Origin: Candidatus Altiarchaeales archaeon
GTDB lineage: Archaea > Altiarchaeota > Altiarchaeia > IMC4 > SCGC-AAA252-I15
Direction: 5' to 3'
DNA length: 64,000 nt
Assembly: GCA_014727915.1 (NCBI GenBank)
Contig: WJMO01000006.1
Location: forward strand, 130,137 to 194,136
A program made the translations under genes and the position numbers. The notes under the pieces are model-generated. The model was not told the DNA's origin and did no database searches. It saw only the letters and a program-made list of their open reading frames with translations. Of the stretch, positions 48,591 to 64,000 are shown piece after piece; positions within the stretch are counted from its first letter, which is position 1; every line of letters begins with the position of its first letter.

Positions 48591-49163
48591 ATGAGAATGT
48601 CCATTGTTTTGCTGGTTATTATGTCGGGTTGCCTCGGAGGCGGGCCCGACGTGGAGGCCGAGCCGACGACGACTACCATCACCCTGCCCGAGGACTGCGG
48701 TTTAGACGTTCCAGTCAGGCTGCAGATGGATGGGGACTGGTGCGGGGTGGCGGTATCCCAGATGATCCTGGAATACTATGGGTTATACGCGGACCAGAAG
48801 ACGCTCTCGGAGGAGATAGTCGGGGACCGTGGAGGCTCCTTAACGCATATGAAGGACGTGCTTGCAGGCTATGGGCTGGAGGTCGAGGAGAAGAACTATG
48901 GTTTGGAGGGTGTCAGCGAATTGGAGAAGGCAGTCTGCGGGGAGAGGTCGCCCGTAATCGTCTTGCAGAGGATGGGCTTCGAAAACCCGAACAGCCACTA
49001 CAGGATCGTCGCAGGCTTCGACAGGAGATACGCTTATGTAATCGACCCATACTATGGGCGGGTGAGATTCACCAGGAACGAGTTCAGGGAGCTGTGGGAG
49101 TTCAACGACCCGAACAGGGTGGACAACACCGCCTTGATAGTCAGGGGAGGGGTGAGGGTTTGA
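48591..49163 (+). CDS. C39-like papain-fold peptidase-domain lipoprotein (catalytic residues present)
   Basis: Lipobox SGC; Q-x5-C (LQMDGDWCGVAV) and His (SHYRIVAGFD). Confidence 0.6.
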   Translation: MRMSIVLLVIMSGCLGGGPDVEAEPTTTTITLPEDCGLDVPVRLQMDGDWCGVAVSQMILEYYGLYADQKTLSEEIVGDRGGSLTHMKDVLAGYGLEVEEKNYGLEGVSELEKAVCGERSPVIVLQRMGFENPNSHYRIVAGFDRRYAYVIDPYYGRVRFTRNEFRELWEFNDPNRVDNTALIVRGGVRV

Positions 49164-49672
49164 TGGAGTGTAGGGGGGCTCTGGTGTTGTTGATGGTTTT
49201 CAGCGGTTGCATCGGCGTAGAGGATGGGTTGCCGGAGGAATGCGGGTTGAAGATCGAATTCCATGGCGTGGGTGATGCCGCCTTCGCCCGGGCAGTGTTG
49301 GAATACTACGGGATAAACAGGAGCTTGGAGGTGTTGGAAGGAGACCTAGCCATGGAAGCTGGAACAGGCCGGTTAGACCGGATGAAGTCTCTGCTGAGGA
49401 TGCACGGACTCCACGTTGAAGAGGGTAAGGCCATGGACTGGGAGGAGTTGGGCGTTCACGTCTGCGAAGAGGGCAATACAGCCATATTATTTCACAGAGA
49501 GGGAGAGACTTTCATGGCTGTCCTGGGTTTCGAAGGCGGCAGAGTATACGCCGAAGACCAGAGGGAGGGTCTGGTCAGGTTCACCAGGGATGAGTTCATG
49601 CTTTCAACATTGCAGGATGGTAAGTTGGTCGTTCATGGTAGGCTCTTGGAGGGTAAGCCACTCTGCATCTGA
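49163..49672 (+). CDS. C39-like domain lipoprotein paralog lacking catalytic Cys and His (predicted inactive)
   Basis: ATG overlaps upstream stop (TGATG); lipobox SGC; Gly/Asp at Cys position, Thr at His position; conserved LVRFTRDEF tail. Confidence 0.5.
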   Translation: MECRGALVLLMVFSGCIGVEDGLPEECGLKIEFHGVGDAAFARAVLEYYGINRSLEVLEGDLAMEAGTGRLDRMKSLLRMHGLHVEEGKAMDWEELGVHVCEEGNTAILFHREGETFMAVLGFEGGRVYAEDQREGLVRFTRDEFMLSTLQDGKLVVHGRLLEGKPLCI

Positions 49673-51007: not shown

Positions 51008-51685
51008 TCAGACTATCTTCCCGTCGACTATCTGTATCTTCTGCCTGGCGTTCTTGGCTATCTTCGAGTCGTGGGTGACTATCACCAAGGTCTTGCCCTC
51101 TTCCTCGTTCAACCTCTTCAGCAGGCCCATGATTGTCTTCCCGGTATTCTGGTCCAGGTTCCCGGTGGGCTCGTCGGCGAGTATAATCTGGGGATCGTTA
51201 GCCAGGCTTCTAGCTACCGCGACCCTCTGCTGCTGTCCGCCGCTCAGCTCCGACGGCCTGTTGCCCGCCTTGTCGGAGAGGCCGACCAGCTCGATTATCT
51301 CCTCTACTTTACTATTCCGCACGGGTTTTGGTGTGCCCTTGAATCTCATGGGGAGTTCGATGTTCTCGGCTGCGCTCATCGTCGGGATGAGGTTGAACTG
51401 CTGGAAAACGAACCCCAGCTTCTCCCTCCTCAACCTGGCCTTCTGAACTCCGTTCAACCCGCTTATGCCAACGTCCTCGATGTAGACCTCCCCCCGTGTG
51501 GGGGTGTCCAGGCAGCTTATCAGATTCAGCAAGGTGGATTTGCCAGAGCCTGAAGGTCCGATTATGCTAGCGAACTCCCCCAACTCAATCGTCAAGTCCA
51601 CTCCGTTCAATGCCCTGCATTCGTTAGGCTCGCCCTCGTTGTATATCTTGAACAAACCCACACAGCGTATTTCCCCGTTACTCAT
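51008..51685 (-). CDS. ABC transporter ATP-binding protein (MacB/LolD-like)
   Basis: Walker A GPSGSGKST, signature LSGGQQQR, Walker B ILADEPTGNLD. Confidence 0.9.
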   Translation of the reverse strand: MSNGEIRCVGLFKIYNEGEPNECRALNGVDLTIELGEFASIIGPSGSGKSTLLNLISCLDTPTRGEVYIEDVGISGLNGVQKARLRREKLGFVFQQFNLIPTMSAAENIELPMRFKGTPKPVRNSKVEEIIELVGLSDKAGNRPSELSGGQQQRVAVARSLANDPQIILADEPTGNLDQNTGKTIMGLLKRLNEEEGKTLVIVTHDSKIAKNARQKIQIVDGKIV

Positions 51686-52847
51686 AGCGCAACACCTCTA
51701 TAGGATCGAGCCTCGAAGCAGCCCATGCAGGATATAAGCCTGCCCCCATCCCTAGTATGAGGGAGAATGCGAATCCTATGGCGATGAGCTCAGGGCTTAA
51801 TATGGGGGTGAATGACGTGTGGGATTTCACCAGTTCACTGGCTCCATATCCGAGCATGAACCCGATGAACCCGCCTATGAGGCTCAACACCGCGGACTCC
51901 TCCAATACCTGCATGAGTATGTTGGTTGTGGTGGCGCCGATGGCCTTCATCACCCCAATCTCCCGCCTGCGTTCCATGACGCTCATGATCATCGTGTTCA
52001 TTATGCCAATGCCACCCACGATAATGGACACAGCGCCGATGCCGTAGACTGCCATCGTTATGGTGCCCAACGTGCTCTCCAAGCTCCGGACCAACGTAAT
52101 AGCAGAGAAAGCCCGGACCGTGTCGAACATGTCGCTTATCTCCTGTTGGATAGGTTCTACATTCTCGACCTCGTCCACCTTCACCTTTAACTGGGTTATC
52201 TTGTCGTCGTCTTCCAAATCCTGCATGGTTGAAAGGGGGACGAAAGCCGCCTCGTCAATTGTTGAGTCCCCGGTCTCCTCCAGGATGCCCACGACTTCGA
52301 AGTGGAAGCTATCGGTGGTGTCGTTCTCGACCCGCTGGTACTCTATCTCGTCGCCGACGTTGTACAGTTGGTTGTAGGCGGTCGTGGATCCCAGGAGCAC
52401 CACATACTGGAAGTCGTCTGATACATCAAGTTTACGACCGTCATCTGCGACTATGTTCTCGCCTATCAGGTAGTCCTGGTCTTCAGGGTTCAAGGCCGTG
52501 AACTCCAGGGTGCTGGATGAGCCGCCCATCATCCGACCCATCATCCCCCCAAAGCCTCTGTGGCCCCCGCGGCTTATCCGGTATTCGCCGATTGCCACAA
52601 CGTCCGTTACGCCTGTTATGTCCCGTATGTCCTGTATCATGTCCTCGGTTATACCGTCCTCGCTCTCGAAGTCGCGGACGTCGATGACGGCCGCCATGTC
52701 ACCGAAGGAATCCTGTATCTGCTTGTTCAACCCCTCACCTATGGCTCCGAGGGTGAGTATCAAACCTATGCCCATGGCTATGCCCAGCATGGTCAATATG
52801 CTGCGGGACTTCTGCCTGAAGACGTTCTTAAACGCGATGTCAAGCAT
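51678..52847 (-). CDS. ABC transporter permease, FtsX/MacB-type
   Basis: N-terminal TM, large extracytoplasmic domain, C-terminal 3-TM FtsX-like bundle; start probably ATG 52847. Confidence 0.8.
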   Translation of the reverse strand: MLDIAFKNVFRQKSRSILTMLGIAMGIGLILTLGAIGEGLNKQIQDSFGDMAAVIDVRDFESEDGITEDMIQDIRDITGVTDVVAIGEYRISRGGHRGFGGMMGRMMGGSSSTLEFTALNPEDQDYLIGENIVADDGRKLDVSDDFQYVVLLGSTTAYNQLYNVGDEIEYQRVENDTTDSFHFEVVGILEETGDSTIDEAAFVPLSTMQDLEDDDKITQLKVKVDEVENVEPIQQEISDMFDTVRAFSAITLVRSLESTLGTITMAVYGIGAVSIIVGGIGIMNTMIMSVMERRREIGVMKAIGATTTNILMQVLEESAVLSLIGGFIGFMLGYGASELVKSHTSFTPILSPELIAIGFAFSLILGMGAGLYPAWAASRLDPIEVLRYE

Positions 52848-52848
52848 C

Positions 52849-54531
52849 TTACTTCTTCTTACGCCTCTTGTAGAGCTTGTAACCGCCAACAACCACAACC
52901 AAGACTATAACTGCCTTCATTAACAGGGCTGCCAGCCCAGAACCAGAATTCCTATTTGAAGAGCCCGTGAAAGAGGACATCGCAGTTGAAGAACCACCCC
53001 CAAGGTTGAAGGTTTCCACCTGGGTGACTCTCTCACCGTTCAATCCAGCATACTCCAACGTCAAAGTGAACGGGCCGGACACGGTAGTGTCGAAGGTGAA
53101 GGTCGTCTGCTTCGTAGGCTTGATGTCCGACTTGTAGGAGACAATCTCCTGGCTTCCGGTTTGAGCGTATGCGGAAGTCCCACTATCAGACGTTGATTGC
53201 CTGGCACCTCCGCTGGGCCGGACCATACCCCTGCCAGACAACATGGACACCGGATTAGACTGCCTCTGGCTCGCCCTGTTTTCCCAGGCCTCATCCGTGG
53301 ACTGGGTGCTACGGTCAAACGTCCGGTTACCCAGGTCCGACGTCTTTACAGTGGCCTTGACTCCCTCCGCAGCCCGGGTGCCAATGTTAGCGACTTCTAT
53401 GCGGAGCGAACCACGCTCCTGATCGACGTTTATCACCTCCAATATGACCTGCCCCGACACATCCAATCCGATGCTCTTCTCATCCGTGTACGAAGTGCCC
53501 CCGACCGTATAGTCTATCGTCAAGGGTATCGCATAGGTTTGAATCTCAGCATCCCATGAGATGGATATCTCAAACTCTGTCTGCACATCCTCGCCGGACT
53601 CGACCGTGCCTATGTGCTTCTCCGCAGTGTCAACTGGGACGAAAGGCTCGGACAGTGTCAGGCTTGCCGTGACATCATCAGCGGCCGCAGCCCCATAGTT
53701 CTTCAAACCCATCTTCAATTCTACCGTCTCTCCCGGACCTGTCGGCTCGTAGCTGACGTTCAAAACCTTGAAGTCAATGCCCGCACTCTCAACGTTCAAG
53801 CCGAAGGACATGTTTCTGGAGGCTGAAGTGCCGGACTCGTCCGTGTAGTCTATCTTCAAAGAGACCATGCACGCCCCCTCAGCAGAAGGCTTTATCTGGT
53901 AGCCCAATGTGAAATCATCGCCTTCCTCAATGTCTCCTATGTACTTTCTGGATGAGCCTATAACGGTGAGGCAGTCAGACGATAGCGTGGCTTCCAGGTC
54001 CTCCACCGAGGAGCGCAACGTACCTTCCAGGACCAGGTCTCCGAGCGTGTCCTTATAGTATGTGGTCTTCTCCGGGTTCAACTGGAAGAGTGGGTTACCG
54101 TATATCCGCAGGGGCACGTCCCATGTGGTGAGCAGGTTGTTCACCGAAGTCCCATCGTATTTGAAACCGTCATATGATATGCGAACGTTAATCGCTGTCA
54201 AACCCGTCTTCGCTCCCTCCTTTACCCTCACAACTACGGGCACGGTCTTGGACTGCTCCGGGTCGACCCTGCCTATGTAGAATTTCTTGTCGACACTCAC
54301 GACACCAGTGCTTGGAATGTATACTTCAACGTCGTCAGCGCGAAACCCGCCAGTGTTCTCAATGGCAAGGTTGAGTATGCCACTGTCACCAGGCCTGAGA
54401 TTAGAGTCATAGTATGTCGAGTCGAAGTCAACGACCACGTTAGTTGGTGAGGTCGTGCCTGCAGTAGCAGCCAAGACACCATCTGAAAAAATGCAAAGGA
54501 ACACCATCAACAACAAAATCCTTTTCACCAT
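52849..54531 (-). CDS. Secreted surface-layer-like beta-repeat protein with C-terminal TM anchor (partner of FtsX/ABC pair)
   Basis: Signal peptide; repeated beta-rich modules; C-terminal TM + KKRRKK stop-transfer. Confidence 0.65.
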   Translation of the reverse strand: MVKRILLLMVFLCIFSDGVLAATAGTTSPTNVVVDFDSTYYDSNLRPGDSGILNLAIENTGGFRADDVEVYIPSTGVVSVDKKFYIGRVDPEQSKTVPVVVRVKEGAKTGLTAINVRISYDGFKYDGTSVNNLLTTWDVPLRIYGNPLFQLNPEKTTYYKDTLGDLVLEGTLRSSVEDLEATLSSDCLTVIGSSRKYIGDIEEGDDFTLGYQIKPSAEGACMVSLKIDYTDESGTSASRNMSFGLNVESAGIDFKVLNVSYEPTGPGETVELKMGLKNYGAAAADDVTASLTLSEPFVPVDTAEKHIGTVESGEDVQTEFEISISWDAEIQTYAIPLTIDYTVGGTSYTDEKSIGLDVSGQVILEVINVDQERGSLRIEVANIGTRAAEGVKATVKTSDLGNRTFDRSTQSTDEAWENRASQRQSNPVSMLSGRGMVRPSGGARQSTSDSGTSAYAQTGSQEIVSYKSDIKPTKQTTFTFDTTVSGPFTLTLEYAGLNGERVTQVETFNLGGGSSTAMSSFTGSSNRNSGSGLAALLMKAVIVLVVVVGGYKLYKRRKKK

Positions 54532-54586
54532 ATTTTTTCACCTTATTATCCTGAATATCAAGAATACACATCCTTAAATATAATAC

Positions 54587-54636
54587 TGAAACAGGGGATA
54601 TCCCAGCGTGAAACACCTGTAGCAGAATGTGAAACA
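54587..54636 (+). promoter_or_regulatory. Triple TGAAACA direct-repeat array (R1), upstream of surface-protein/ABC operon
   Basis: TGAAACA at 54587, 54609, 54630 (spacing 22, 21); TATA-like ttaaatataat adjacent. Confidence 0.55.
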
Positions 54637-54701
54637 TGGGTTTGGGAGGCTTCCCGGGTCGGATTAGAGTGGGAAGCCTCCGTTGTGGTGGCTGCAGTGA
54701 G

Positions 54702-55211
54702 CTATTGTTTAGTTCCTGCCGGTTGGCCTTCTGCAAAAGGGCATCCACCGCCCCGCATACCCCTACCAGGAAATCCACCCCCCATCTTCCCGGGGCATTT
54801 ATCCGGGTTCTCCTGGCAGTAGGCATGGTGGGCCTCCATTATCTCCTCGTGTGTGGCGTCCTCGCCGAGGCCGAGCTTGGATAGCATCTCACTGTGCCTT
54901 TCCTCCATCTCCTGGTGGCGTTCCTCCATACGGGCCTTCACTGCAATATGGAACTCCCCTATCGTATCGTCCTCGGTCAGGCCGAGGTCGGATAGTCTCT
55001 TCTCCCACATGGCTTCTCTTATCTCTTCTCTCGTAGCATCTTCCGTAAGCCCGAGCTCCTCCAGGTTCACAGGCTCATGTCCTTTCATAAACCCGTGTCT
55101 GGAGAATCCCTTGCTTCCCCCTGCCGCTTCCGTTGCGTTGACGGCCACCACCAGTCCTAGGACCAGCAGTGCTGCCAAGCCAGCGGCAAACAGTTTGGTT
55201 TTACCATCCAC
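54702..55211 (-). CDS. Secreted protein with three LGLTED(A/D)T..EEI repeats and Gly-rich tail
   Basis: Signal peptide; GTG start preceded by GAGGTGA. Confidence 0.5.
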   Translation of the reverse strand: MDGKTKLFAAGLAALLVLGLVVAVNATEAAGGSKGFSRHGFMKGHEPVNLEELGLTEDATREEIREAMWEKRLSDLGLTEDDTIGEFHIAVKARMEERHQEMEERHSEMLSKLGLGEDATHEEIMEAHHAYCQENPDKCPGKMGGGFPGRGMRGGGCPFAEGQPAGTKQ

Positions 55212-55239
55212 TTTGGTTCACCTCGAAGGATTCATTGGA

Positions 55240-55289
55240 TGAAACAGGGCATAAGTTTGGATGAAACAGTTGTGGCAGAAGATGAAACA
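55240..55289 (+). promoter_or_regulatory. Triple TGAAACA direct-repeat array (R2)
   Basis: TGAAACA at 55240, 55262, 55283 (spacing 22, 21), 30-80 nt upstream of GTG 55211. Confidence 0.55.
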
Positions 55290-55294
55290 TGACT

Positions 55295-55705
55295 TTAAAG
55301 CTTCAGCTTGACGAGGTTGGTGTTTCCCAGGGGCTTCTTCTCAACGACACCCCGTTGCTCCAGCTTGGACAGGACCCTTGAGACCTTCACCTTGGATATT
55401 CCGGTCTCTGCAACGAGGTACATCTGCTCCATCTTGCCCTCCTTCAACAGCACCTCTATTATCTTCCGCTCCTCAGCGGGCAATACCTTCAGCATCGAGT
55501 AGGCCTGCCTCTGGGTCACCTTCCACTGGAACATTAGTATTATCAGAGCTCCAACACCCATGGAGACAGCTGTCACCCCGTAGACCACCACAGGCATGGA
55601 CGAGCCGGTGTCTTCAATGTAGGACCCGTTAAGTATGGACAGTAGTATCCCCAAGCCGAACACTGACGTTAATGCTATCGCTAACCGCTTCTCCGAGACT
55701 TCCAT
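55295..55705 (-). CDS. Two-TM membrane-anchored wHTH regulator (paralog family)
   Basis: Two TM helices then wHTH (ETGISKVKVSRVLSKLEQRGVVEKK). Confidence 0.55.
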   Translation of the reverse strand: MEVSEKRLAIALTSVFGLGILLSILNGSYIEDTGSSMPVVVYGVTAVSMGVGALIILMFQWKVTQRQAYSMLKVLPAEERKIIEVLLKEGKMEQMYLVAETGISKVKVSRVLSKLEQRGVVEKKPLGNTNLVKLKL

Positions 55706-55708
55706 CTT

Positions 55709-55987
55709 CTATCCGCCTATGTCCTCCTTCATCTCAAGGTATGTTTTCTTGTCTATCTCCCCTGACACATACCGTTTCTTCAGCACGTCCAATGGTGTTT
55801 CAACCCTGCGGGAGCCGCGTACAAGCCACCAGAATATGAGGGCAACGACCACCACTATGACGAGATTCCACACCATGAAGGTCGGAACCAATCCGAATAT
55901 GGGCTCACGACCCAGGAAAGGATGCGGCGCCCTGCATGTGGAGAACATTGCGGCCCTGCCGCCGAACTCGGCAAAAGTCTGGTTCAT
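55709..55987 (-). CDS. SHOCT-domain small membrane protein
   Basis: TM helix followed by LKKRYVSGEIDKKTYLEMKEDI; real start may be an internal Met. Confidence 0.45.
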   Translation of the reverse strand: MNQTFAEFGGRAAMFSTCRAPHPFLGREPIFGLVPTFMVWNLVIVVVVALIFWWLVRGSRRVETPLDVLKKRYVSGEIDKKTYLEMKEDIGG

Positions 55988-56023: not shown

Positions 56024-56073
56024 TAAAAAAGGGTGAAACAGGCGATATCCAGGGTTGAAACAGCCGTATCAAA
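56024..56073 (+). promoter_or_regulatory. Triple TGAAACA direct-repeat array (R3), divergent intergenic region
   Basis: TGAAACA at 56024, 56046, 56067 (spacing 22, 21); first unit plus GATATCC flank near-identical to R1. Confidence 0.55.
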
Positions 56074-56135
56074 AAATGAAACACTGATAGGTTTTTATAG
56101 ATTTGCAGTCAAATAAGAAGGCGTGGAGGTCACAT

Positions 56136-56924
56136 ATGGACTTCATAGTATTATCGGTTTCGGGTTTTTTGATAGGGGCTTTAGGCACGATAATAGGCTC
56201 GGGAGGGGGTTTTCTTGTAGTCCCACTGCTTCTCCTGCTAACCGACCTCTCACCCCAGGTTATCGCGGGGACCTCCTTGACAGTGGCTTTGTTCACATCC
56301 CTGTCGGGTTTTGTCGCATATCACAGGCAGAGGAAGATCGACTACCTTGTCGCGGGAGTATTTGTCCTAGCTCTGATACCGGCGACTTTCATCGGCGTGG
56401 AAGTAAACCAGAGGATAGAAGCGGACCAGTTCAGGATGATACTGGGGGTCCTGCTGGTGATGATCTCAACCCTGCTATTCAAGAGGGTCAACATCCGGAT
56501 ACCGCATTATATCCCCTACCCCATCCACTATGACCGGGAGAAGACGGACAGCCAGGGAGTCACATACAAGTATCACGTGAGCATGAGGAGGGGGGCGCTC
56601 ATGAGCTTCGTTATCGGGGTGGTCTCGCCGGTTGTGGGCATCGGCGGAGGAGTCCTCAGGACGCCTGCGATGGTCGTTTTGGAAGGCATGCCAGCCCGTA
56701 TCGCAGCGCCAACAAGCCAGGTAACGACGATATTCGGGGGTGCGATTGCAGTGGCGTTGTTCGCCATGAAATCCCAGATCAACATATCATATGCCATACC
56801 GCTTATAGTGGGGGTGATAGTGGGGGCGCAGGTTGGAGCCCTATTCTCAGAGAGATACGGGCTTATGGTCCGGAAGATTACCTCAGCCGCCCTTTTCATA
56901 ACTGGGCTCTGGCTGCTGCTGTAG
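56136..56924 (+). CDS. TauE/SafE-family (DUF81) anion exporter
   Basis: Two repeated halves each with Gly-rich motif; start probably ATG 56136. Confidence 0.7.
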   Translation: MDFIVLSVSGFLIGALGTIIGSGGGFLVVPLLLLLTDLSPQVIAGTSLTVALFTSLSGFVAYHRQRKIDYLVAGVFVLALIPATFIGVEVNQRIEADQFRMILGVLLVMISTLLFKRVNIRIPHYIPYPIHYDREKTDSQGVTYKYHVSMRRGALMSFVIGVVSPVVGIGGGVLRTPAMVVLEGMPARIAAPTSQVTTIFGGAIAVALFAMKSQINISYAIPLIVGVIVGAQVGALFSERYGLMVRKITSAALFITGLWLLL

Positions 56925-57920: not shown

Positions 57921-58007
57921 GCCCCCGGAGCAGCCACCAACCACAACCAACAATAAGAGCCAAATAGCATATGTGCTGGTTTTAGGCTAAAAAAGGCGTT
58001 AGGGACC
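57921..58007 (+). repeat. Direct repeat A flanking hicBA cassette
   Basis: gcccccggagcagccaccaaccacaaccaa...gagccaaatagca...gttagggacc; imperfect copy at 58749-58877. Confidence 0.6.
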
Positions 58008-58069
58008 AATAAATCAAAGGTTTAACATTCTTAAATAGTATTTAATTATCTTACATTCTTATATCTTTT

Positions 58070-58303
58070 ATGATGAAAAAAACTCAATTTCCCCTTGTTA
58101 TTGAAAAAGATGAGGATGGGTTCTATGTTGTAGAATGCCCAGTGTTGGAGGGGTGTTATTCTCAGGGTAAAACCTTGGATGAGGCGATGAAGAATATTCG
58201 GGAAGTCATTGAGATCTGTCTTGAGGAATCGTCCACTAAAGATTTTCTGAAAAACTATCACCCAGTAGAGTTTAGCTTCCATACTATTACTGTTGGTTCA
58301 TGA
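58070..58303 (+). CDS. hicB: HicB-family antitoxin (UPF0150-like)
   Basis: FPLVIEKDEDGFYVVECPVLEGCYSQGKTLDEAMKNIREVIE typical of HicB N-domain. Confidence 0.7.
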   Translation: MMKKTQFPLVIEKDEDGFYVVECPVLEGCYSQGKTLDEAMKNIREVIEICLEESSTKDFLKNYHPVEFSFHTITVGS

Positions 58304-58527
58304 TGGCATCGAAGCTGCCCATCGTTTCTGGCAAACAAGCAGTCAAAGCGTTCAACAAACTTGGTTATGCTGTTATTAGAAGGAGGAGTAGCCATATTCG
58401 CCTGGAACATGAAAGTAAGAAAAAGATAACAATCCCAGACCACAAAACACTAGGAAAAGGAATACTAAGAAAACTAATCCGCGATGCTGAGATAACAATA
58501 GAAGAATTCAACAAATTACTAAAGTAA
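58300..58527 (+). CDS. hicA: HicA-family toxin (YcfA-like)
   Basis: 75 aa; SGKQAVKAFNKLGYAVIRRRSSHIRLEH pattern; start overlaps hicB stop. Confidence 0.7.
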   Translation: MMASKLPIVSGKQAVKAFNKLGYAVIRRRSSHIRLEHESKKKITIPDHKTLGKGILRKLIRDAEITIEEFNKLLK

Positions 58528-58748
58528 AATTTTCACCCCAATTCTTTAAAGGAGTTCAACACCCCCCAAATCAACGAATCCTCATCCGACTCAATGAAGC
58601 TCTCGAAGCGATCGAAAAGGAAGCCAACAAATTCTTCGTGCAATTGTCCAAGAACAAGCAGTTCAGAACTTGGCTGGAGAAGACGTTCACAGCCCCGAAG
58701 ATCGAGGCGGGGTTGAGTTTGCCCTTTTTTTCGGTTGCCGGTTTCGAA

Positions 58749-58877
58749 GCCCCAGGAGCAACCACCAACCCACAACCAAGAAAAAGAGCCAAATAGCAAA
58801 TCAGCTAGAATTAAGCTAAACCCGTCGAAACTACCAACACACAACCAAGAACAGAAGCCAACAGCGTGTTAGGGTCC
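58749..58877 (+). repeat. Direct repeat B flanking hicBA cassette (with internal partial duplication)
   Basis: gccccaggagcaaccaccaacccacaaccaag...gagccaaatagca...gttagggtcc. Confidence 0.6.
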
Positions 58878-58885
58878 TTTTTCTG

Positions 58886-59722
58886 CTATGTTTTTTTGAA
58901 TTTAAGGTGTATTATCTCTGGTTGGGCGAAGAATCTTATAGGTAGTCCTGTCACTCCTACTCCATTTGTTATTATGACTTTTGTGTGTTCTGTTTCCACG
59001 ATGCCACTTATGTATTTTTCACCGTAGTCGCTTGTCTTGTAGGGGGTCCATAAACCGAAGAAAGTGACCTGTCCACCGTGTGTGTGCCCTGCTAACATAA
59101 GGTCTATTTTGTCTGTTTTAATCTCTTCTGCGTAGTCTGGATTGTGTGAGATAAGGATTACAAAGTCCTCTTCTGAAACATTCTCTATTGTTGGTTGTAT
59201 GTCCTGTGTGTCTTCCCATATGTCTCCGACGCCACCTACCCTAATCTTGTTCCCATTATCTGTAATCCATTCACCCTGGTTGTCGACGAGCGTTATATCG
59301 GCCTCCTCTAGGGCTTTCCTTGCTTGTTCTGCATCAGCCCAATGTTCATGATTGCCTAACACACCATAGACTCCCAGAGGTGCATGGAGGTCTTTTAATT
59401 CTCCTATGCAGGGGTCAATGTATTTTATGTCATCGTAGATGTAGTCGCCACCCAACAAAATAATATCTGGTTCGAGGTCGTTAATCATCCCTATTATGTC
59501 TCTTGTCCTCTCAACTGACAACAGGGGACCGCAGTGTATGTCAGCCACGAAAACAGCAGTCTTACCATTAAACGAACTGGGAACATCCTCGTCAACAATA
59601 TCTATCTCATTAACTCGAATAAGATATGCCTCAATGAACGAATAGGCAAAACATAAAAGAAACACCATTCCCATACCGACTAGTATCCTTTTCCACCGCA
59701 TCTCAAACCATATAACCCCCAA
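58886..59722 (-). CDS. Calcineurin-like metallophosphoesterase
   Basis: N-terminal TM; motifs GDYIYDD, GNHEHW, GHTHGGQ. Confidence 0.75.
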   Translation of the reverse strand: MGVIWFEMRWKRILVGMGMVFLLCFAYSFIEAYLIRVNEIDIVDEDVPSSFNGKTAVFVADIHCGPLLSVERTRDIIGMINDLEPDIILLGGDYIYDDIKYIDPCIGELKDLHAPLGVYGVLGNHEHWADAEQARKALEEADITLVDNQGEWITDNGNKIRVGGVGDIWEDTQDIQPTIENVSEEDFVILISHNPDYAEEIKTDKIDLMLAGHTHGGQVTFFGLWTPYKTSDYGEKYISGIVETEHTKVIITNGVGVTGLPIRFFAQPEIIHLKFKKT

Positions 59723-59953
59723 TCAATAAATATTTCTGGATTTCACTCTAACAACAAACAGATATATGGCTCTAAAGGTCCATCTCCCCATCAAAAGGCT
59801 ATATTGCACCAGAACAAACAGGTGAGCTACAAGAACAAACAGGGTAGGGTGTTGTCTTGTCTTGTGAAGTCTCCTTGGCCTGTTTGGGCTGAATATTGGT
59901 TTTTATCCTGTCTTGTATGCTAGGATGATGGTTCCTTGATCCTTGCCTGTATT

Positions 59954-60415
59954 TTAAGGAATAATCTCGTTGTGGATGTAACTATGAGCAGCTAAGGAAT
60001 ATGCCCCACTAATGGCATGGACCATTACACAAGCTATCAGTGAGACTAATGAAAAGATAAAATTGAAAATAAAAACTGGGATTATTATTCGGTTACGTCT
60101 TGAATTAACTTTTTTCTCTAGATAGACATGTATGCTGGAAAAACCAATCCCATAACAGATCGGGTTAATTATCAGAAAAATTTGTTCAATCATTCCCTGC
60201 ATTAAATTCATGTTCTGTGCATCTGAGAGTAGATTGAATACTGGTTTGGTAAATGTAAGGATGATATTTCCAGCTGAGAATATGCTCTGTCCTGCAATAA
60301 TAAAAATTAGTAGATAGAACATAATCTGCAAGACAATAATAAAAAAAGCAATTAGGGCCGACTTTATCCATTTGTTTTCTTGTGAAAAAATCTTGCGCCT
60401 TAAGTTACCTAGCAT
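59954..60415 (-). CDS. Membrane protein, hypothetical (AT-rich gene)
   Basis: 153 aa, 4 predicted TM helices; low GC. Confidence 0.4.
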   Translation of the reverse strand: MLGNLRRKIFSQENKWIKSALIAFFIIVLQIMFYLLIFIIAGQSIFSAGNIILTFTKPVFNLLSDAQNMNLMQGMIEQIFLIINPICYGIGFSSIHVYLEKKVNSRRNRIIIPVFIFNFIFSLVSLIACVMVHAISGAYSLAAHSYIHNEIIP

Positions 60416-60439
60416 TTTAGCCTATATCGAGTTCCTTTT

Positions 60440-63400
60440 TTATTCGAAGTTTAGTACTCCGTCCCGCAATTTGAATGTTCCGTTGTCTAGTTCTATTTTG
60501 GAGTCTGCGATTGATACTGTCAGTTCCCTTGCAGTGAATGTTGATTCTATCACTCTCATTGTGCCGTTGACGTAGATGTCGTCTACTGTACAAGTGTTGT
60601 CTGAGGTAACATTCCAGTCTCCGTATTCGGGGCATGATTCTCCACTGCATCCTGCTTCGAGTTGGATGGTTATGTTGATTGCTTCGCTGGTTGAGTATAT
60701 GCCCTCTGTTGTCTCTATTTCTATAGTGAATTCGTAGCTGTTGCCGGATGTCCCTGTTGCGTTGACACTCCAGCTGGGACTGCATGATTGCCCGTATGTC
60801 AGTGGTCCACAGTCGTAGGGGTTTTGGCTGGTTGTGTAGAATGGTGTTCCACTATTCATCGGGATTGCTCCTTTTCCTATGGTGACCGCTGTGCTGTTTA
60901 CTGCGGTCCCGTTCATGTATTCGTCTCCTGGCGTGATTTCGCATATTATGCCATCTCCTATTGTGTAGTTGGAGTATTCCAGCGTATTGCTTGTTTCATC
61001 GCTTATCACTTCACCGTTTTTGAACCAGCGGTAATGGGCAGTTGGCGTGTCATCGTCATCCCCTAGTCCCAGGTGGTTGCATTCCAGGTTCTCGCTGTAC
61101 GGTGGCGAGGAGGGCAGTATGTATGCAAGAGTGACATAGGGTTTGCATCCTCCTCCGCTAACGCAAGATGATGTGCAGGTCACTTCTGTGTCGTTCCATG
61201 TTCCATCCCCTCCCCCTATGCATGTCCTGTAGCTTTGTCCGTCGCAGTAACGGTAGTTTTGGCTGTACTGGCTGCCGTCGTGTACGCACCCGTCTGATAG
61301 GCTTGAGCAGAATTCCCCGCTGTCGTCATAGTCGTCCGGGTAGCAGTAACCTCCACTACAGACATCATCTGGGTCGCTGCCTTCCTGTTCCTTGTCTTCA
61401 CAGTCTCCGCCATCAGATACTTGTGTTAGGCAGTCTCCGTCTTTGTTGCAGTATTCTCCTGCTGAACAGTTACTGTGCATTACACACCCGATCGTGTATT
61501 CAAGATAAATGTCTTCTGGAAGCCATTGCACTTCGTTCAGTTTAGGATCTGGCTCCCCTGGTGGTCCATCACAGTCTGTTTCTGATTCGACGTCTAGATG
61601 CAGCTTAAATCCTATTATACTCTTGTTTTCGTTTAAGTAACTGTCTTGCACTTCTGTTAGTATGTCTTCGTCAAGGCTGCAGTCACAATCATGCCATGAT
61701 CCGTCATCCCAGCTCATATCACAGATGGTCGCTATTTCAGTTGAGCCTATGCCTTTATCGTCGCATGATAGGCCTCCAAAATCTTCATCTAGAATGTTTA
61801 TTGTTAGTTCGTCTCCACTATTGCCTGAACCTATTGCAGAGCAGTCTCCACTGGAACTTCCTTTTAGCCTCATTGTTTTGACGTCTAAGGTGGCGTTTTC
61901 GATGATCTCTGAGATGTTGTATGTCCACCATCCCATGGAAAAATCCCCGTATTCCAGTGCGCTGCCTGTTGCTCTTATAAGATTGTCTCTTAAGTCGCTT
62001 CCACTGCAGTTGTTTTTATCGCAGCTTTGGAAATCTAGTTCTTCTACATCGTTGTATTCTTGAAGGGGTTTAATAGTCGGGTCTATGATGATGGGATATT
62101 CTGCTTCCAATAGCCATTTTTTCGGGAGATTCAATCGTAGGATCGTATCTCCCAACTCTTTGTAGATTGTATATGATGTGTCGAGTTTTTCACTGTGGTT
62201 GTCTGTGATGAACGGCCTCTGTATTGTGAAATACGATAATTCCACTGGTATTCTGCCTTGTTGTTTCTTTAGTTTGAATGGAATATCTTCTTCAACGAGT
62301 TTTTCACTGCCATCCCAGTTTATACCATTGACAATCGGGGTTAAGTGCTCTGGATAATCAAGGATATATGTTATTTCAAAGTCCTGTGTTGAAGATGCAA
62401 AGAGATTTGAAGAGTCTACAATGATGGATTCCTTTAGCAAATCGTCTGTTAGTTCATACTTGATGTCAACACCTTCACCAAGAATATTCGCATAAAATGG
62501 TTCGTCGTTAAACATGGATAAGCTGTTTGAATCATAGAATAATTTTTGATTAGTGGTTGGCTTTATTTTAAAGGATAGTGTTGTGTCTAATGCTGTGAAA
62601 TCAACGGTCTTATCCATGTGGAATACTGCACTATAGTGTTTTTTCTCGTATTTAATGTCCTCTTCGGCTGAAACCAGGGTGGTTGTGGTTGTTGAGGTGT
62701 CCATTGTTGTAGTGGTTAGTTCAATTAGGGTGGTGGTTGTAGTTTCAATTGTCGTGGTTGTGGTCTCTGCTGGGAGGGTTGTAGTGGTTGAGGATGGTTG
62801 GAGTGTGATAGTTGTTGTGGTATCTAATAATGGAATGGTGGTGGTTGTCTCACTCGTGGAGGTAGTTGAGGATGTGCTTGTTGTGCTTACCAGGATTTTG
62901 CTTTCATCCTGTGTTGATGAGGCCAGATCTGGATCCAGGATTACGGTAACATTACCACAGTCGTCTACCAGGCATGTCACGTTCACGGTAAAATCAAAGA
63001 ACTGATTTTGGTAAACTATTTCAGAAGATACCAAAGGATCAAGAATAGATATATCTACTTTTGGAAGTGCAAGGACCGTGTAATTGAATACTGCTACGTT
63101 GTTGGTTTCGTCCAGTTCTTCGACAGAGTCTTTGCTGTCTGCTATCACGTATACATGGTTGGTTCCTGTGTTGTTTGTGACGTTCCATGTTAAATCAACA
63201 AGATAATCTTCTCCAACGTCAAGCAGGCCCATTGATGAATTATATATTTCTTCTGCTCCGGTGGGTGTTGCTACTATAATGCTTATTTCCGCGCTTGAGG
63301 TAGTTGATGCTAGTGTCCCGTCATTTGTGACCGATGCGTTTATAGTGATGATCTGGTTTTCATAGAGGTTCTGTGGCGTGACATTCAAGGTTGAGTTGAA

Positions 63401-64000
63401 GTCGGGCATATCCGCACCGATTGCCGTGAAAATTGTGTTATGATCAATGAGCGCCCATACGTATTTATTGATGGTATCGACTCCAGTTATTGCTTCTTCA
63501 AGCCATTCTGAAGCGGTTTCATTCCACCAGTGAATTTTTAGAGTTTCTTCTGGAACGGTTAATGCACTGGAATTATAGGGGATTTTCAACAAGAAATAAT
63601 TGAATGATCCACTGATCTCAACATTCACATATTTACCTATGCTACTGTTATCACCGCCAGTTGGAGCAGAGATTATATCAAATCCTGAGAAATATGCAAG
63701 GGAATCCAAACTGTTTAGGATTCCAAGTATGCCCTCTGTTTCGTTAGTTGGTGGTTCTGGTTTTACTAGTATTGTTGCATAAGCCTGGTTATTTGCTTCA
63801 TCAGTTTCTTCAATATCATCTTGGGAGTCTATTTCTACAAATATTGTATGGTTATTTGCATCGGGGATATTCCATGATACGCCAACTTGTTTACTTCCTC
63901 CTGCTTCGACAACATCCGCAATGCTTGAACCTATGTATACTCCTCCATCACTTATGTTACCATCATAAAAACTAACATTAACGTCATATGCATTGCTACT
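60440..64000 (-). CDS. Giant surface protein (partial, N-terminus beyond window): CARDB-like repeats, ~90-aa poly-Thr linker, Cys-rich C-terminal domains
   Basis: Reading frame stays open upstream of track start (TTG 63709) to the window edge; DETNN-type motifs (ELDETNNVAVFNYTV; ETDEANNQAYATILV). Confidence 0.65.
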   Translation of the reverse strand, partial: SSNAYDVNVSFYDGNISDGGVYIGSSIADVVEAGGSKQVGVSWNIPDANNHTIFVEIDSQDDIEETDEANNQAYATILVKPEPPTNETEGILGILNSLDSLAYFSGFDIISAPTGGDNSSIGKYVNVEISGSFNYFLLKIPYNSSALTVPEETLKIHWWNETASEWLEEAITGVDTINKYVWALIDHNTIFTAIGADMPDFNSTLNVTPQNLYENQIITINASVTNDGTLASTTSSAEISIIVATPTGAEEIYNSSMGLLDVGEDYLVDLTWNVTNNTGTNHVYVIADSKDSVEELDETNNVAVFNYTVLALPKVDISILDPLVSSEIVYQNQFFDFTVNVTCLVDDCGNVTVILDPDLASSTQDESKILVSTTSTSSTTSTSETTTTIPLLDTTTTITLQPSSTTTTLPAETTTTTIETTTTTLIELTTTTMDTSTTTTTLVSAEEDIKYEKKHYSAVFHMDKTVDFTALDTTLSFKIKPTTNQKLFYDSNSLSMFNDEPFYANILGEGVDIKYELTDDLLKESIIVDSSNLFASSTQDFEITYILDYPEHLTPIVNGINWDGSEKLVEEDIPFKLKKQQGRIPVELSYFTIQRPFITDNHSEKLDTSYTIYKELGDTILRLNLPKKWLLEAEYPIIIDPTIKPLQEYNDVEELDFQSCDKNNCSGSDLRDNLIRATGSALEYGDFSMGWWTYNISEIIENATLDVKTMRLKGSSSGDCSAIGSGNSGDELTINILDEDFGGLSCDDKGIGSTEIATICDMSWDDGSWHDCDCSLDEDILTEVQDSYLNENKSIIGFKLHLDVESETDCDGPPGEPDPKLNEVQWLPEDIYLEYTIGCVMHSNCSAGEYCNKDGDCLTQVSDGGDCEDKEQEGSDPDDVCSGGYCYPDDYDDSGEFCSSLSDGCVHDGSQYSQNYRYCDGQSYRTCIGGGDGTWNDTEVTCTSSCVSGGGCKPYVTLAYILPSSPPYSENLECNHLGLGDDDDTPTAHYRWFKNGEVISDETSNTLEYSNYTIGDGIICEITPGDEYMNGTAVNSTAVTIGKGAIPMNSGTPFYTTSQNPYDCGPLTYGQSCSPSWSVNATGTSGNSYEFTIEIETTEGIYSTSEAINITIQLEAGCSGESCPEYGDWNVTSDNTCTVDDIYVNGTMRVIESTFTARELTVSIADSKIELDNGTFKLRDGVLNFE

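What the first reader, a model, noticed from the sequence alone, without database searches (positions are those of the whole stretch)
51008..55987. Candidate envelope module: SHOCT protein - membrane wHTH - secreted repeat protein - surface-layer-like protein - FtsX permease - ABC ATPase
All six genes are on the minus strand and each transcription unit is preceded by one of the TGAAACA arrays. This suggests a self-contained, locally regulated cell-surface remodelling or export system.
Basis: inference. Interest (0 to 1): 0.65.

Follow-up and report, generated by a model that had tools for sequence, protein, structure and literature searches.

The report
Membrane-anchored regulator and its envelope regulon
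In an uncultured Altiarchaeota genome, three neighbouring promoters share a 50-base element of three evenly spaced TGTTTCA repeats. They drive a membrane-anchored DNA-binding protein with its small partner, a secreted protein, and a surface-protein/ABC-pump trio, and the same arrangement recurs in dozens of related archaea, so it is a well-defined but uncharacterised membrane-to-gene signalling unit.

Summary
Six minus-strand genes form three transcription units: SHOCT plus a 2-TM DUF7343 winged-helix protein; a secreted helical-repeat protein; and a CARDB surface protein with a MacB-type FtsX permease and an ABC ATPase. Each unit is preceded by one copy of a 50-nt element (3xTGTTTCA, spacing 21/22 nt, conserved spacers). 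None is expected by chance, and there are only three in 64 kb. The window is from a Candidatus Altiarchaeales MAG. In 39 related genome loci the SHOCT-wHTH pair is practically invariant. 49 arrays (38-71 bits; shuffle maximum 3.7) all lie on the gene strand, upstream of the same gene classes, even where gene order is shuffled. Distant DPANN relatives keep 2-4 nGTTTCA repeats, then a secreted protein, SHOCT and wHTH, without the transporter. Leaderless-type starts 14-15 nt after repeat 3 put the conserved ATAT of spacer 2 at the TATA position, so repeats 2 and 3 bracket the TATA box. Best explanation (0.7): an autoregulated, membrane-tethered one-component regulon, an archaeal analogue of ToxR-ToxS or BcrR. 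DNA binding, the signal and the sign of regulation are inferred. This family, its operator and its SHOCT partner are undescribed, so it is a new variant of a known kind.

The parts
56034..56083 (-). Array C: 50-nt promoter/operator element upstream of the SHOCT-wHTH operon. R1 56077-56083, degenerate R1' 56065-56071, R2 56056-56062, ATAT box 56045-56048, R3 56034-56040.
   Evidence: PWM 65.4 bits. ATG of SHOCT 46 nt after R3, SD at +32.
55709..55987 (-). SHOCT partner protein (92 aa): short external N-tail with a GRExLFGxIP-type motif, one TM helix, cytoplasmic SHOCT domain.
   Evidence: Pfam SHOCT 22.5 bits. Orthologue in L161 annotated PF09851. 42 orthologues aligned, TM 28-60. 3-nt gap to the wHTH gene.
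55295..55705 (-). Membrane-anchored winged-helix regulator (136 aa, DUF7343): TM hairpin about residues 6-61, invariant outer loop NGxYIEDTG, cytoplasmic wHTH residues ~77-134.
   Evidence: Pfam DUF7343 56.9 bits, MarR_2, TrmB. Alignment A1. AF2 TM hairpin pLDDT ~90. KD hydropathy.
55240..55289 (-). Array B: same element, starting 5 nt after the wHTH stop codon. It is the promoter/operator of the secreted-protein gene. R1 55283-55289, R2 55262-55268, TTAT box 55251-55254, R3 55240-55246.
   Evidence: PWM 59.9 bits. SD at +15/16, GTG at +28.
54702..55211 (-). Small secreted protein (169 aa): signal peptide, three LGLxEDATxEEIxEA helical units, Gly/Arg/Met/Cys-rich disordered ends.
   Evidence: AF2 helices 61-75, 84-113, 121-134 at pLDDT ~85. 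No Pfam family. No structural match.
54645..54681 (-). Stable hairpin (11-bp perfect stem) directly after the secreted-protein stop. Probable transcript-end or stabilising structure separating units 2 and 3.
   Evidence: -24 kcal/mol, z = -4.9, 0 of 200 shuffles as stable.
54587..54636 (-). Array A: same element upstream of the CARDB-FtsX-ABC operon. R1 54630-54636, R2 54609-54615, ATAT box 54598-54601, R3 54587-54593.
   Evidence: PWM 63.2 bits. SD at +42, ATG at +55.
52849..54531 (-). CARDB/NEW3 multi-domain surface protein (560 aa): signal peptide, beta-sandwich ectodomain, S/T/N/Q/G-rich linker with N-x-S/T sequons, C-terminal TM anchor plus KRRKKK tail. Probable extracytoplasmic subunit of the transporter.
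   Evidence: Pfam. TM 1-26 and 528-554. Homologues named 'COG1361 S-layer family protein'. Sits between the ABC and FtsX genes in L160.
51678..52898 (-). MacB-type (type VII ABC) permease: MacB_PCD outer domain between TM1 and TM2, FtsX C-terminal TM bundle, conserved Gly-rich insert in the outer domain. Likely true start ATG 52847.
   Evidence: Pfam MacB_PCD 93 bits, FtsX 83 bits. NCBIfam MacB/LolCE-like, below cutoffs. Orthologue alignment.
51008..51685 (-). ABC ATPase of the LolD/MacB/FtsE type. Its start overlaps the FtsX stop by 8 nt.
   Evidence: Pfam ABC_tran 123.7 bits. NCBIfam LolD 227 bits, MacB 214 bits, FtsE 213 bits, all below equivalog cutoffs.

Best explanation
This is an autoregulated regulon run by a membrane-tethered one-component regulator.

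Proposed mechanism.
- The 136-aa DUF7343 protein sits in the membrane through an N-terminal two-helix hairpin and exposes a MarR/TrmB-like winged helix to the cytoplasm.
- It is co-translated with a single-pass SHOCT protein, which most likely forms the sensing or anchoring complex with it.
- The winged helix binds the TGTTTCA heptamers of a 50-nt element present at three promoters. With the TSS at the A of an ATG 14 nt after R3, the layout is R1 (-64..-58), a degenerate R1' 12 nt further on, R2 (-43..-37, abutting the BRE), a weak TATA box (ATAT, -29..-26) and R3 (-21..-15).
- The 21/22-nt spacing (two helical turns) puts all sites on one DNA face, as expected for a protein that can reach DNA only from the membrane side.

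Targets. Its own operon, a small secreted helical protein, and a CARDB surface protein with a MacB-type ABC mechanotransducer.

Signal and sign of regulation. A change in the membrane or envelope, sensed by the invariant outer loop (NGxYIEDTG) and/or the SHOCT protein's external tail, alters DNA occupancy and switches the three units together. My committed guess for the sign is that full occupancy represses and the signal relieves it, because R3 lies between the TATA box and the TSS (about 50%). Activation is about 35%, and dual behaviour makes up the rest.

Shown versus inferred. Shown: the genes, domains, the element, its conservation, its strand and position, and its exclusive association with these genes. 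Inferred: that this wHTH is the binder, the TSS position, the role of SHOCT, the signal, the sign, and the physiological function (an envelope-stress-like response).
For: Element is non-random and unique to the locus: (3 arrays, 0 expected).

Spacer positions that were not used for selection are conserved (T9-11, T13G14, A17C18, G20, A33, A36-T39), while both flanks are not.

49 PWM hits of 38-71 bits in the window plus 39 related loci, against a shuffle maximum of 3.7. All are on the gene strand and directly upstream of SHOCT, secreted/lipoprotein or CARDB genes.

Arrays follow the genes through at least five different gene orders.

The recognition helix (SKVKVSR) and wing (GNTNL) are near-invariant and are kept in orthologues of 46-53% identity. 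A de novo phased-6-mer search finds the same nGTTTCA arrays in those loci.

An unbiased scan of the metagenome collection found conserved-spacer arrays only with module genes.

The regulator's own operon carries an array, or lies downstream of an array-driven gene.

Nine to ten ATG starts with no SD lie at +14/+15 (one at +17) after R3, and each begins a signal peptide. An SD never starts closer than about +12.

TM hairpin model has pLDDT ~90.

The arrays have no RNA structure and match no Rfam family.

Precedent: transmembrane transcription regulators with small co-encoded membrane partners (ToxR-ToxS, TcpP-TcpH, VtrA-VtrC), and BcrR controlling an ABC transporter (PMC10269533). SHOCT domains are predicted to act at the inner membrane leaflet in membrane-stress signalling (PMC11237479).
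Against: There are no expression, TSS or binding data, so the assignment of this wHTH to the heptamers rests on co-occurrence and autoregulatory placement.

The wHTH part of the AF2 model has low confidence (pLDDT ~42), and there is no close solved homologue.

The triad is not within +-8 kb of the pair in L003, L006, L009, L014 and L025 (L002 has only about 3.9 kb of sequence downstream). It has no detectable array in L012 and L021.

Four short distant loci (L028, L030, L033, L039) show no array in the little upstream sequence available.

L161 has four repeats, all upstream of a TATA-like box, with none downstream. The TATA boxes inside the arrays are weak (GATATC, CTTATG). Both observations fit activation better than repression.

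Confidence: 0.7

Rival explanations
1. Same regulon and same binder, but the membrane wHTH is an activator. R1/R1'/R2 upstream of the BRE act as an upstream activating sequence that recruits TBP/TFB to a weak TATA box. R3, one helical turn past the TATA centre, helps to clamp the TBP-bent DNA.
For: All characterised TTRs listed in PMC10269533 Table 1 that I know of act as activators, and ArnR is described as a membrane-bound activator. The TATA boxes inside the arrays are weak (GGATATCG, ACTTATGC, GGATATCC). L161 has four repeats upstream of a better TATA box and none downstream. DPANN variants add repeats further upstream. R2, the TATA centre and R3 are each about one helical turn apart, so a protein on the heptamer face would sit opposite TBP's minor-groove face (geometric inference).
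Against: R3 at about -21..-15 is present in 49 of 50 arrays. Sites downstream of the TATA box usually repress in archaea (established for TrmBL1, MDR1, LrpA; recalled from my own knowledge, not tested). MarR/ArsR/PadR-like wHTH families are mostly ligand-released repressors. In L034, L035 and L038 an inverted GAAACA follows R3 and forms a palindrome over the TSS-proximal region.
Confidence: 0.25
2. The arrays are operators of a different transcription factor encoded elsewhere. SHOCT and the membrane wHTH are merely members of that factor's regulon.
For: No binding test was possible. Only +-8-10 kb around each locus could be inspected.
Against: Arrays and the DUF7343 gene co-occur from Altiarchaeota to DPANN lineages with only ~50% protein identity, and the DNA-reading residues are conserved in parallel. 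No other DNA-binding gene is conserved in the loci. Where the triad is paired with a different regulator (PadR, L160), the array is absent.
Confidence: 0.12
3. The repeats are a structural promoter feature (phased bending or UP-like elements) or the remnant of a duplicated promoter cassette, with no dedicated regulator.
For: The element contains the core promoter, and its three copies in the window are 72-74% identical.
Against: The heptamers are far better conserved than the surrounding promoter across phylum-level distances, while the spacers diverge. Ordinary archaeal promoters in the same window lack the element. Conservation of exact 21/22-nt phasing with sequence-specific heptamers is the signature of protein recognition.
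Confidence: 0.05
4. The arrays function at the RNA level (leader or terminator element), or they are miniature mobile repeats.
For: Array B lies 5 nt after the wHTH stop codon and could be part of that transcript's 3' end.
Against: Folding z-scores are -0.5, +2.1 and -0.1. No Rfam match at E<=1. Leaderless-type starts put the arrays upstream of the TSS. There are no terminal inverted repeats or target duplications, and the element always has the same orientation relative to the downstream gene.
Confidence: 0.02

Closest known systems
ToxR-ToxS / TcpP-TcpH type transmembrane transcription regulators (bacteria)
   Same: A winged-helix DNA-binding domain tethered to the cytoplasmic membrane. A small membrane partner encoded next to it (PMC10269533 Table 1). 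Binding to directly repeated short sites near the promoter (ToxR direct repeats; recalled from my own knowledge, not tested).
   Different: The topology is inverted: here an N-terminal TM hairpin and a C-terminal MarR/TrmB-like wHTH, with a 12-residue outer loop and no periplasmic sensor domain. The partner's conserved domain (SHOCT) is cytoplasmic. The promoter is archaeal (BRE/TATA) with sites bracketing the TATA box. No sequence homology was detected.
BcrR of Enterococcus faecalis (membrane-bound one-component sensor controlling the bcrABD ABC transporter)
   Same: A membrane-bound regulator that directly controls an adjacent ABC transporter operon, with no kinase (PMC10269533).
   Different: BcrR has an N-terminal XRE-type HTH and four C-terminal TM helices, and it binds inverted repeats (recalled). 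The transporter here is MacB type with a CARDB partner. The regulon here also includes a secreted protein and the regulator's own operon.
ArnR/ArnR1 of Sulfolobus acidocaldarius
   Same: The only experimentally characterised archaeal membrane-bound transcription factors, and they control cell-surface structures (PMC6396743).
   Different: Domain order and family differ (N-terminal HTH, C-terminal TM helices). The targets are archaellum and pilus genes. There is no SHOCT partner and no phased heptamer array.
HAAS-PadR-like wHTH two-gene signalling systems (predicted; PMC11237479)
   Same: A wHTH regulator paired with a small helical membrane-associated partner, found with membrane-stress genes and ABC transporters. 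In L160 the same ABC-CARDB-FtsX triad is flanked by a PadR gene and a Yip1-family gene.
   Different: PadR is soluble and its partner is HAAS/Yip1-like. Here the regulator itself is membrane-embedded and its partner carries SHOCT. L160 lacks the heptamer array.
MacB / LolCDE / FtsEX type VII ABC mechanotransducers
   Same: An FtsX four-helix bundle with a MacB_PCD outer domain, plus a LolD/FtsE-like ATPase.
   Different: No membrane-fusion or EnvC-like partner. Instead there is a translationally coupled CARDB multi-domain type I membrane protein and a conserved Gly-rich insert in the outer domain. All NCBIfam equivalog cutoffs are missed. The substrate is unknown.
Ss-LrpB autoregulation through three regularly spaced sites (Sulfolobus solfataricus)
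   Same: Three in-phase operator sites in an archaeal regulator's own control region, with occupancy-dependent outcome (recalled from my own knowledge, not tested here).
   Different: Those are 15-bp palindromic boxes bound by a soluble Lrp dimer about four turns apart and upstream of the TATA box. Here the sites are 7-bp direct repeats two turns apart that bracket the TATA box, and the regulator is membrane-bound.

Membership tests
Transmembrane transcription regulators (TTR; one-component, membrane-bound) | Recognisable DNA-binding domain | tested here: met
   DUF7343 56.9 bits (cutoff 27.6), MarR_2 27.3 (cutoff 27), TrmB 26.5 (cutoff 25.6), residues 78-134.
Transmembrane transcription regulators (TTR; one-component, membrane-bound) | At least one transmembrane segment in the same polypeptide | tested here: met
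   Two hydrophobic segments, 6-28 and 37-61. AF2 helices 5-33 and 39-72 at pLDDT ~90. No positive charges in the 27-38 loop, and K/R-rich after TM2.
Transmembrane transcription regulators (TTR; one-component, membrane-bound) | Binds promoter DNA and regulates transcription while in the membrane | not testable with these tools
   Only indirect evidence: conserved co-occurrence with the phased heptamer arrays, and autoregulatory placement.
SHOCT domain proteins (PF09851) | Match to the 28-residue bi-helical SHOCT profile at the C-terminus | tested here: inconclusive
   22.5 bits, E = 9e-5, below the gathering cutoff of 27, but covering profile positions 2-27 of 28. The orthologue in L161 carries a precomputed PF09851 hit. 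The LKKRYxxGEIxxxxY/F motif is invariant in 42 orthologues.
MacB-type (type VII) ABC transporter | FtsX four-TM permease with a MacB_PCD extracytoplasmic domain between TM1 and TM2 | tested here: met
   MacB_PCD 93.4 bits (residues 33-255) and FtsX 82.6 bits (residues 287-399). TM segments.
MacB-type (type VII) ABC transporter | Cognate LolD/MacB/FtsE-class ATPase | tested here: met
   ABC_tran 123.7 bits. Best NCBIfam families are LolD, MacB and FtsE. Walker A GPSGSGKS, signature LSGGQQQR and Walker B ILADEPT are visible in the translation.
MacB-type (type VII) ABC transporter | Membership of a named orthologous system (MacAB-TolC, LolCDE, FtsEX, BceAB, DevCA) | tested here: not met
   All equivalog models score far below their cutoffs (for example LolCE 65 vs 362, MacB 96 vs 966, FtsX 42 vs 255). 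There is no MFP, EnvC-like or 10-TM BceB-like gene in the locus.
S-layer protein | Forms the paracrystalline surface lattice and is the main envelope protein | not testable with these tools
   Only a CARDB/NEW3 domain match and the database name 'COG1361 S-layer family protein' for a homologue. The TM anchor, tight coupling to FtsX, and its position between the ABC and FtsX genes in L160 point to a transporter subunit instead.
Spy/CpxP/ZraP periplasmic stress proteins (considered for the secreted protein) | Sequence or fold similarity to the Spy/CpxP helical cradle (LTxxQ family) | tested here: not met
   NCBIfam Spy 16.8 bits vs cutoff 174, over the signal-peptide region. No Pfam LTXXQ or Metal_resist hit. 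Foldseek vs PDB: no hit with E <= 0.001 and none to Spy/CpxP. The model is only moderately confident (pLDDT 66.6).
Known anti-phage defence systems (PADLOC) | Any component matching a defence-system model beyond generic domains | tested here: not met
   Only generic wHTH (Csa3/CasR C-terminal part), LolE-TM and ABC-fold matches.

The most novel reading that the evidence does not exclude
This is a conserved archaeal envelope- or membrane-stress signalling pathway of a new type. A SHOCT protein and a two-helix-anchored winged-helix regulator form a membrane complex that holds three promoters at the membrane through in-phase heptamers bracketing the TATA box, and switches a dedicated set of exported proteins and a MacB-type mechanotransducer. 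If so, it would give SHOCT domains their first concrete function (partner or modulator of a membrane-bound transcription factor). It would also give the first defined operator and regulon for a transmembrane regulator in Altiarchaeota/DPANN archaea.
Probability: 0.35. Interest if true: 0.75.

Novelty: new variant of a known kind. Interest (0 to 1): 0.55.

Why it matters
Membrane-bound transcription factors are known from a census to be common in archaea, but only ArnR/ArnR1 of Sulfolobus have been studied. No operator logic is known for any other, and none is known in Altiarchaeota or DPANN, which cannot be cultured.

This locus gives a complete, testable wiring diagram from sequence alone:
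- the regulator and a candidate co-sensor;
- a 50-nt operator whose heptamers lie on one DNA face and bracket the TATA box;
- a small, closed set of targets.

It also places the SHOCT domain, which is widespread but whose function has been unknown since 2013, in a defined regulatory context. It links a widespread archaeal CARDB/MacB-type ABC cassette to envelope signalling. Altiarchaeota have an unusual double-membrane envelope, so a dedicated envelope-responsive regulon is of biological interest.

The element is short and the DNA-binding domain is small and soluble when truncated, so binding and in vitro transcription tests are feasible without culturing the organism.

Tried and rejected
1. 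Spy/CpxP/ZraP-like chaperone identity for the secreted protein. A faint NCBIfam hit was not confirmed by Pfam or by Foldseek on the AF2 model.

2. Metal-sponge idea (SilE/PcoE-like HxxM/MxxH pattern and Cys/Met/Gly-rich tails). The His pattern is not conserved in homologues, so it stays a remark only.

3. RNA element. No structure and no Rfam family.

4. Defence system. PADLOC gave generic domain hits only.

5. Exact-sequence lookup of the window's wHTH protein found no record, so the rest of the 537-kb contig could not be scanned for further arrays.

6. Raw metagenome matches to the bare 3xTGTTTCA pattern. 110 of the 120 stretches scored below 30 bits on the PWM and 3 more have negative spacer scores, so 113 are unrelated. 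Only about 9 loci (12 arrays, of which 11 were carried into later analyses) have conserved spacers.

7. The wHTH part of the AF2 model was too poor (pLDDT ~42) for a fold search. The PDB sequence search gave only generic wHTH hits.

8. Pfam on nine further array-driven exported proteins gave nothing above cutoff.

9. The sigma-70 promoter and terminator scanner was not used, because the organism is an archaeon.

10. The script's 'leaderless' label for the window's CARDB array is a frame artefact. The real arrangement is SD at +42 and ATG at +55.

Full report
OBSERVATION. The six minus-strand ORFs are present at the stated coordinates, and their labels hold:
- 55709-55987: SHOCT, 22.5 bits, just below Pfam's cutoff.
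- 55295-55705: DUF7343/MarR_2/TrmB winged helix preceded by two TM helices.
- 54702-55211: a signal-peptide protein with internal repeats and no family.
- 52849-54531: CARDB/NEW3 with a signal peptide and a C-terminal anchor.
- 51678-52898: MacB_PCD+FtsX.
- 51008-51685: ABC_tran.

TGAAACA (+ strand) occurs 19 times in the window against 7.9 +- 2.5 expected. Nine of these form three triplets with identical 22/21-nt spacing, at 54587-54636, 55240-55289 and 56034-56083. Adjacent pairs number 6 against 0.00 expected. The triple pattern with up to three mismatches occurs 3 times against 0.00 expected, and nowhere else in the 64 kb.

Gene spacing defines three units. SHOCT and wHTH are 3 nt apart. 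CARDB, FtsX and ABC abut or overlap. The likely FtsX start is the ATG at 52847, 1 nt after the CARDB stop, and ABC overlaps FtsX by 8 nt. The secreted-protein gene stands alone and is followed by a strong hairpin (54645-54681, -24 kcal/mol, z = -4.9). The first array lies just outside the finding's coordinates.

THE ELEMENT. On the gene strand each array reads TGTTTCA-N14-TGTTTCA-N15-TGTTTCA, and the three copies are 72-74% identical over 57 nt. I built a position matrix from 41 arrays in related loci. Spacer positions that played no part in selecting the arrays are conserved (T9-T11, T13-G14, A17-C18, G20, A33, A36-T37-A38-T39), while both flanks carry no information. Positions 13-19 (TGywACr) form a fourth, degenerate heptamer. 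It averages 2.2 mismatches to the inverted copy and 2.7 to the direct copy, against 3.4-6.4 at any other offset. So R1 plus this site resembles an imperfect 7-5-7 palindrome.

ORIGIN AND COMPARATIVE EVIDENCE. The wHTH protein is 100% identical to a protein of a Candidatus Altiarchaeales MAG (537-kb contig). It has more than 100 homologues of 65-81% identity and nearly fixed length. The recognition helix (SKVKVSR), the wing (KKPLGNTNL) and the 12-residue loop between the TM helices (NGxYIEDTG) are almost invariant.

A scan of one genome per species returned 39 loci: 26 Altiarchaeota and 13 labelled Woesearchaeota, Nanohalarchaeota or other, at 46-53% identity.
- A SHOCT gene lies directly upstream of the wHTH gene in essentially every locus with upstream sequence.
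- The CARDB-FtsX-ABC triad is in the same locus in 16-17 of 26 Altiarchaeota loci.
- The PWM finds 49 arrays of 38-71 bits, against a shuffle maximum of 3.7 bits. All are on the gene strand. All are directly upstream of a SHOCT gene, a secreted or lipoprotein gene, or the CARDB gene.
- The arrays stay with their genes although the order varies. The secreted-protein gene lies before SHOCT in L005/6/7/9/14/15. The triad lies before the pair in L012/L021. L161 has CARDB-FtsX-ABC-SHOCT-wHTH in one row.

In the distant relatives, a de novo search for any phased 6-mer recovered nGTTTCA arrays of three or four repeats in L025, L027, L029, L031 and L032. A relaxed search found two-repeat forms (heptamer, A/T-rich box, heptamer, 22 nt apart) in L034, L035, L037 and L038. 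Each is followed by a small secreted protein, then SHOCT, then wHTH, with no transporter nearby. The conserved core is therefore array + secreted protein + SHOCT + wHTH, and the transporter triad is a frequent Altiarchaeota addition.

SPECIFICITY. I scanned the metagenome collection for the bare 3xTGTTTCA pattern, which is independent of any protein. Only about 9 loci (12 arrays) have the conserved spacers, and every one of those is followed by, or sits on a contig with, module genes. The other matches have random spacers and no related genes. A more distant CARDB relative (L160) has the ABC-CARDB-FtsX triad flanked by a PadR regulator and a Yip1-family gene, and it has no array. So the triad is a portable cassette that takes lineage-specific, membrane-linked wHTH regulators.

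PROMOTER GEOMETRY (inferred). In nine promoters an ATG that begins a signal peptide lies 14-15 nt after R3 with no Shine-Dalgarno (a tenth lies at +17). When an SD is present it never starts closer than about +12. This is the signature of leaderless or short-leader mRNAs with a TSS about 14 nt after R3. Taking the A of an ATG 14 nt after R3 as +1:
- the conserved ATAT of spacer 2 spans -29..-26, the archaeal TATA position;
- the purine-rich stretch before it is at the BRE position;
- R2 spans -43..-37;
- R3 spans -21..-15;
- R1 spans -64..-58.

The 21/22-nt spacing equals two helical turns, so all heptamers face one side of the helix. This fits a regulator that can approach DNA only from the membrane.

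L161 is an exception. It has four repeats followed by AAATATAC and an ATG at +37, so its last repeat takes the R2-like, BRE-abutting position and no repeat follows the TATA box.

PROTEINS.
- Regulator. TM hairpin modelled at pLDDT ~90, wHTH part poorly modelled. Charge distribution puts the wHTH in the cytoplasm. The orthologous family is small: 11 clusters at E <= 1e-30 and 95 at E <= 1e-10 among 1.84 billion representatives, with a few fused duplicates.
- SHOCT partner. A variable external tail ending in GRExLFGxIP, one TM helix with an invariant ALIF(W/Y)WL(R/K)xS boundary, and a cytoplasmic SHOCT domain.
- Secreted protein. A fast-evolving family (8 homologues) with 3-4 LGLxEDATxEEIxEAL units and Gly/Arg/Met/Cys-rich ends. 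Three helices modelled at pLDDT ~85. No structural match.
- Other array-driven proteins in relatives share these units, or SGDYDAW...ITxENFxxY units, or are Cys-rich lipoproteins. None has a Pfam family.
- Permease and ATPase. MacB/LolCDE/FtsEX class, but below every equivalog cutoff. The permease has a conserved Gly-rich insert in its outer domain.

MECHANISM. Best explanation (0.7): a membrane-tethered one-component regulator, probably working with its SHOCT partner, binds the heptamers. It co-regulates its own operon, the secreted protein and the surface-protein/MacB-type transporter in response to a membrane or envelope cue.
- Shown: the anatomy, conservation, strand and position of the element, and its exclusive association with these genes.
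- Inferred: who binds, the TSS, the role of SHOCT, the signal and the function.
- The sign is unresolved. R3 between the TATA box and the TSS, and the MarR/ArsR/PadR-like fold, favour a signal-relieved repressor (my commitment, about 50%). Weak TATA boxes, the L161 layout and the behaviour of known transmembrane regulators favour activation (about 35%).

RIVALS.
- An unlinked factor binds the arrays (0.12). This is disfavoured by co-occurrence across phyla and by the absence of the array where PadR replaces the pair.
- A purely structural promoter feature (0.05).
- An RNA or mobile element (0.02). Folding z-scores are -0.5, +2.1 and -0.1, and there is no Rfam hit.
- PADLOC gives generic hits only.

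COMPARISON WITH WHAT IS KNOWN. Transmembrane transcription regulators are widespread, and in bacteria they often have small co-encoded membrane partners (ToxR-ToxS, TcpP-TcpH, VtrA-VtrC). BcrR controls an ABC transporter. In archaea only ArnR/ArnR1 have been characterised (PMC10269533, PMC6396743).

The function of SHOCT is unknown. An oligomerisation hypothesis was tested and not supported, and nucleic-acid binding has been suggested (PMC3581485). A later comparative study predicts inner-leaflet anchoring in membrane-stress systems. It also describes HAAS-PadR-like wHTH pairs as alternatives to two-component signalling (PMC11237479).

The present system works like these but is not a member of any of them. 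It differs in its DNA-binding family (DUF7343, with no papers found), its inverted topology, its SHOCT partner, and its operator built into an archaeal core promoter. I therefore rate it a new variant of a known kind.

LIMITS. There are no expression or binding data. Only +-8-10 kb around each relative could be read. The triad is not linked to the pair in six Altiarchaeota loci, and it has no array in L012 and L021. Four short distant contigs show no array.

Noticed in passing
window 54645-54681 (-): A perfect 11-bp-stem hairpin (GGAGGCTTCCC...GGGAAGCCTCC) lies directly after the secreted-protein stop codon and just before array A. Energy -24 kcal/mol, z = -4.9.
   Followed up: partly
window ~52506-52565 (-), FtsX residues ~112-131: A Gly-rich insert (RGGHRGFGGMMGRMMGGSSS) in the extracytoplasmic MacB_PCD domain is conserved as a Gly/Phe/Met/Arg-rich loop in all 17 orthologues. 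Similar GRGM/RGFGG-type stretches occur in the tails of the array-driven secreted proteins.
   Followed up: partly
window ~54882-54929 (-), secreted protein residues ~95-110: MEERHQEMEERHSEM carries HxxM/MxxxH spacing reminiscent of Ag/Cu-binding SilE/PcoE motifs, and the C-terminus has CxxxxxC and GGGCP. The His pattern is not conserved in homologues, so a metal role is unsupported.
   Followed up: partly
window 56103-56924 (+): A TauE/SafE-family permease gene starts 20 nt from R1 of array C, on the opposite strand, so the array could also affect a divergent promoter. The gene is not found next to the module in any related locus.
   Followed up: partly
window 48591-49163 and ~49170-49672 (+): Two tandem paralogous C39-like (papain-fold) peptidase genes with lipoprotein-type signal sequences (shared ...VRFTR(N/D)EF... 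motif) lie upstream of the Na+/H+ exchanger gene.
   Followed up: no
window 58000-64000: A low-GC island (0.40-0.44 against ~0.54 elsewhere) begins with a HicB/HicA-like toxin-antitoxin pair (58070-58303, 58300-58527) and contains a 1089-aa ORF (60440-63709, -). It may be an integrated element.
   Followed up: no
L160 4659-9456: In a distant organism the triad appears as PadR, ABC ATPase, CARDB, MacB_PCD/FtsX, Yip1. This resembles the HAAS-PadR-like wHTH pairs of PMC11237479 and suggests the CARDB/MacB cassette is generally governed by membrane-linked wHTH pairs.
   Followed up: partly
L012 7673-10271; L016 832-3294: Some Altiarchaeia-type loci carry two or three SHOCT paralogues and extra array-driven genes, including a 176-179-aa protein without a signal peptide (L012 9372, L021 8437).
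   Followed up: no
L034 ~2331, L035 ~7054, L038 ~7146, L027 ~7307: In distant relatives an inverted GAAACA follows R3 after about 6 nt (TGTTTCA-N6-GAAACA). This forms a palindrome over the TSS-proximal region and mirrors the R1/R1' arrangement of the Altiarchaeota arrays.
   Followed up: partly
P0231, P0233, P0238 (representative library): Proteins of about 290 aa match the regulator profile in two stretches, so they are fused tandem duplicates of the TM-hairpin/wHTH unit. This would be consistent with the protein acting as a dimer.
   Followed up: no
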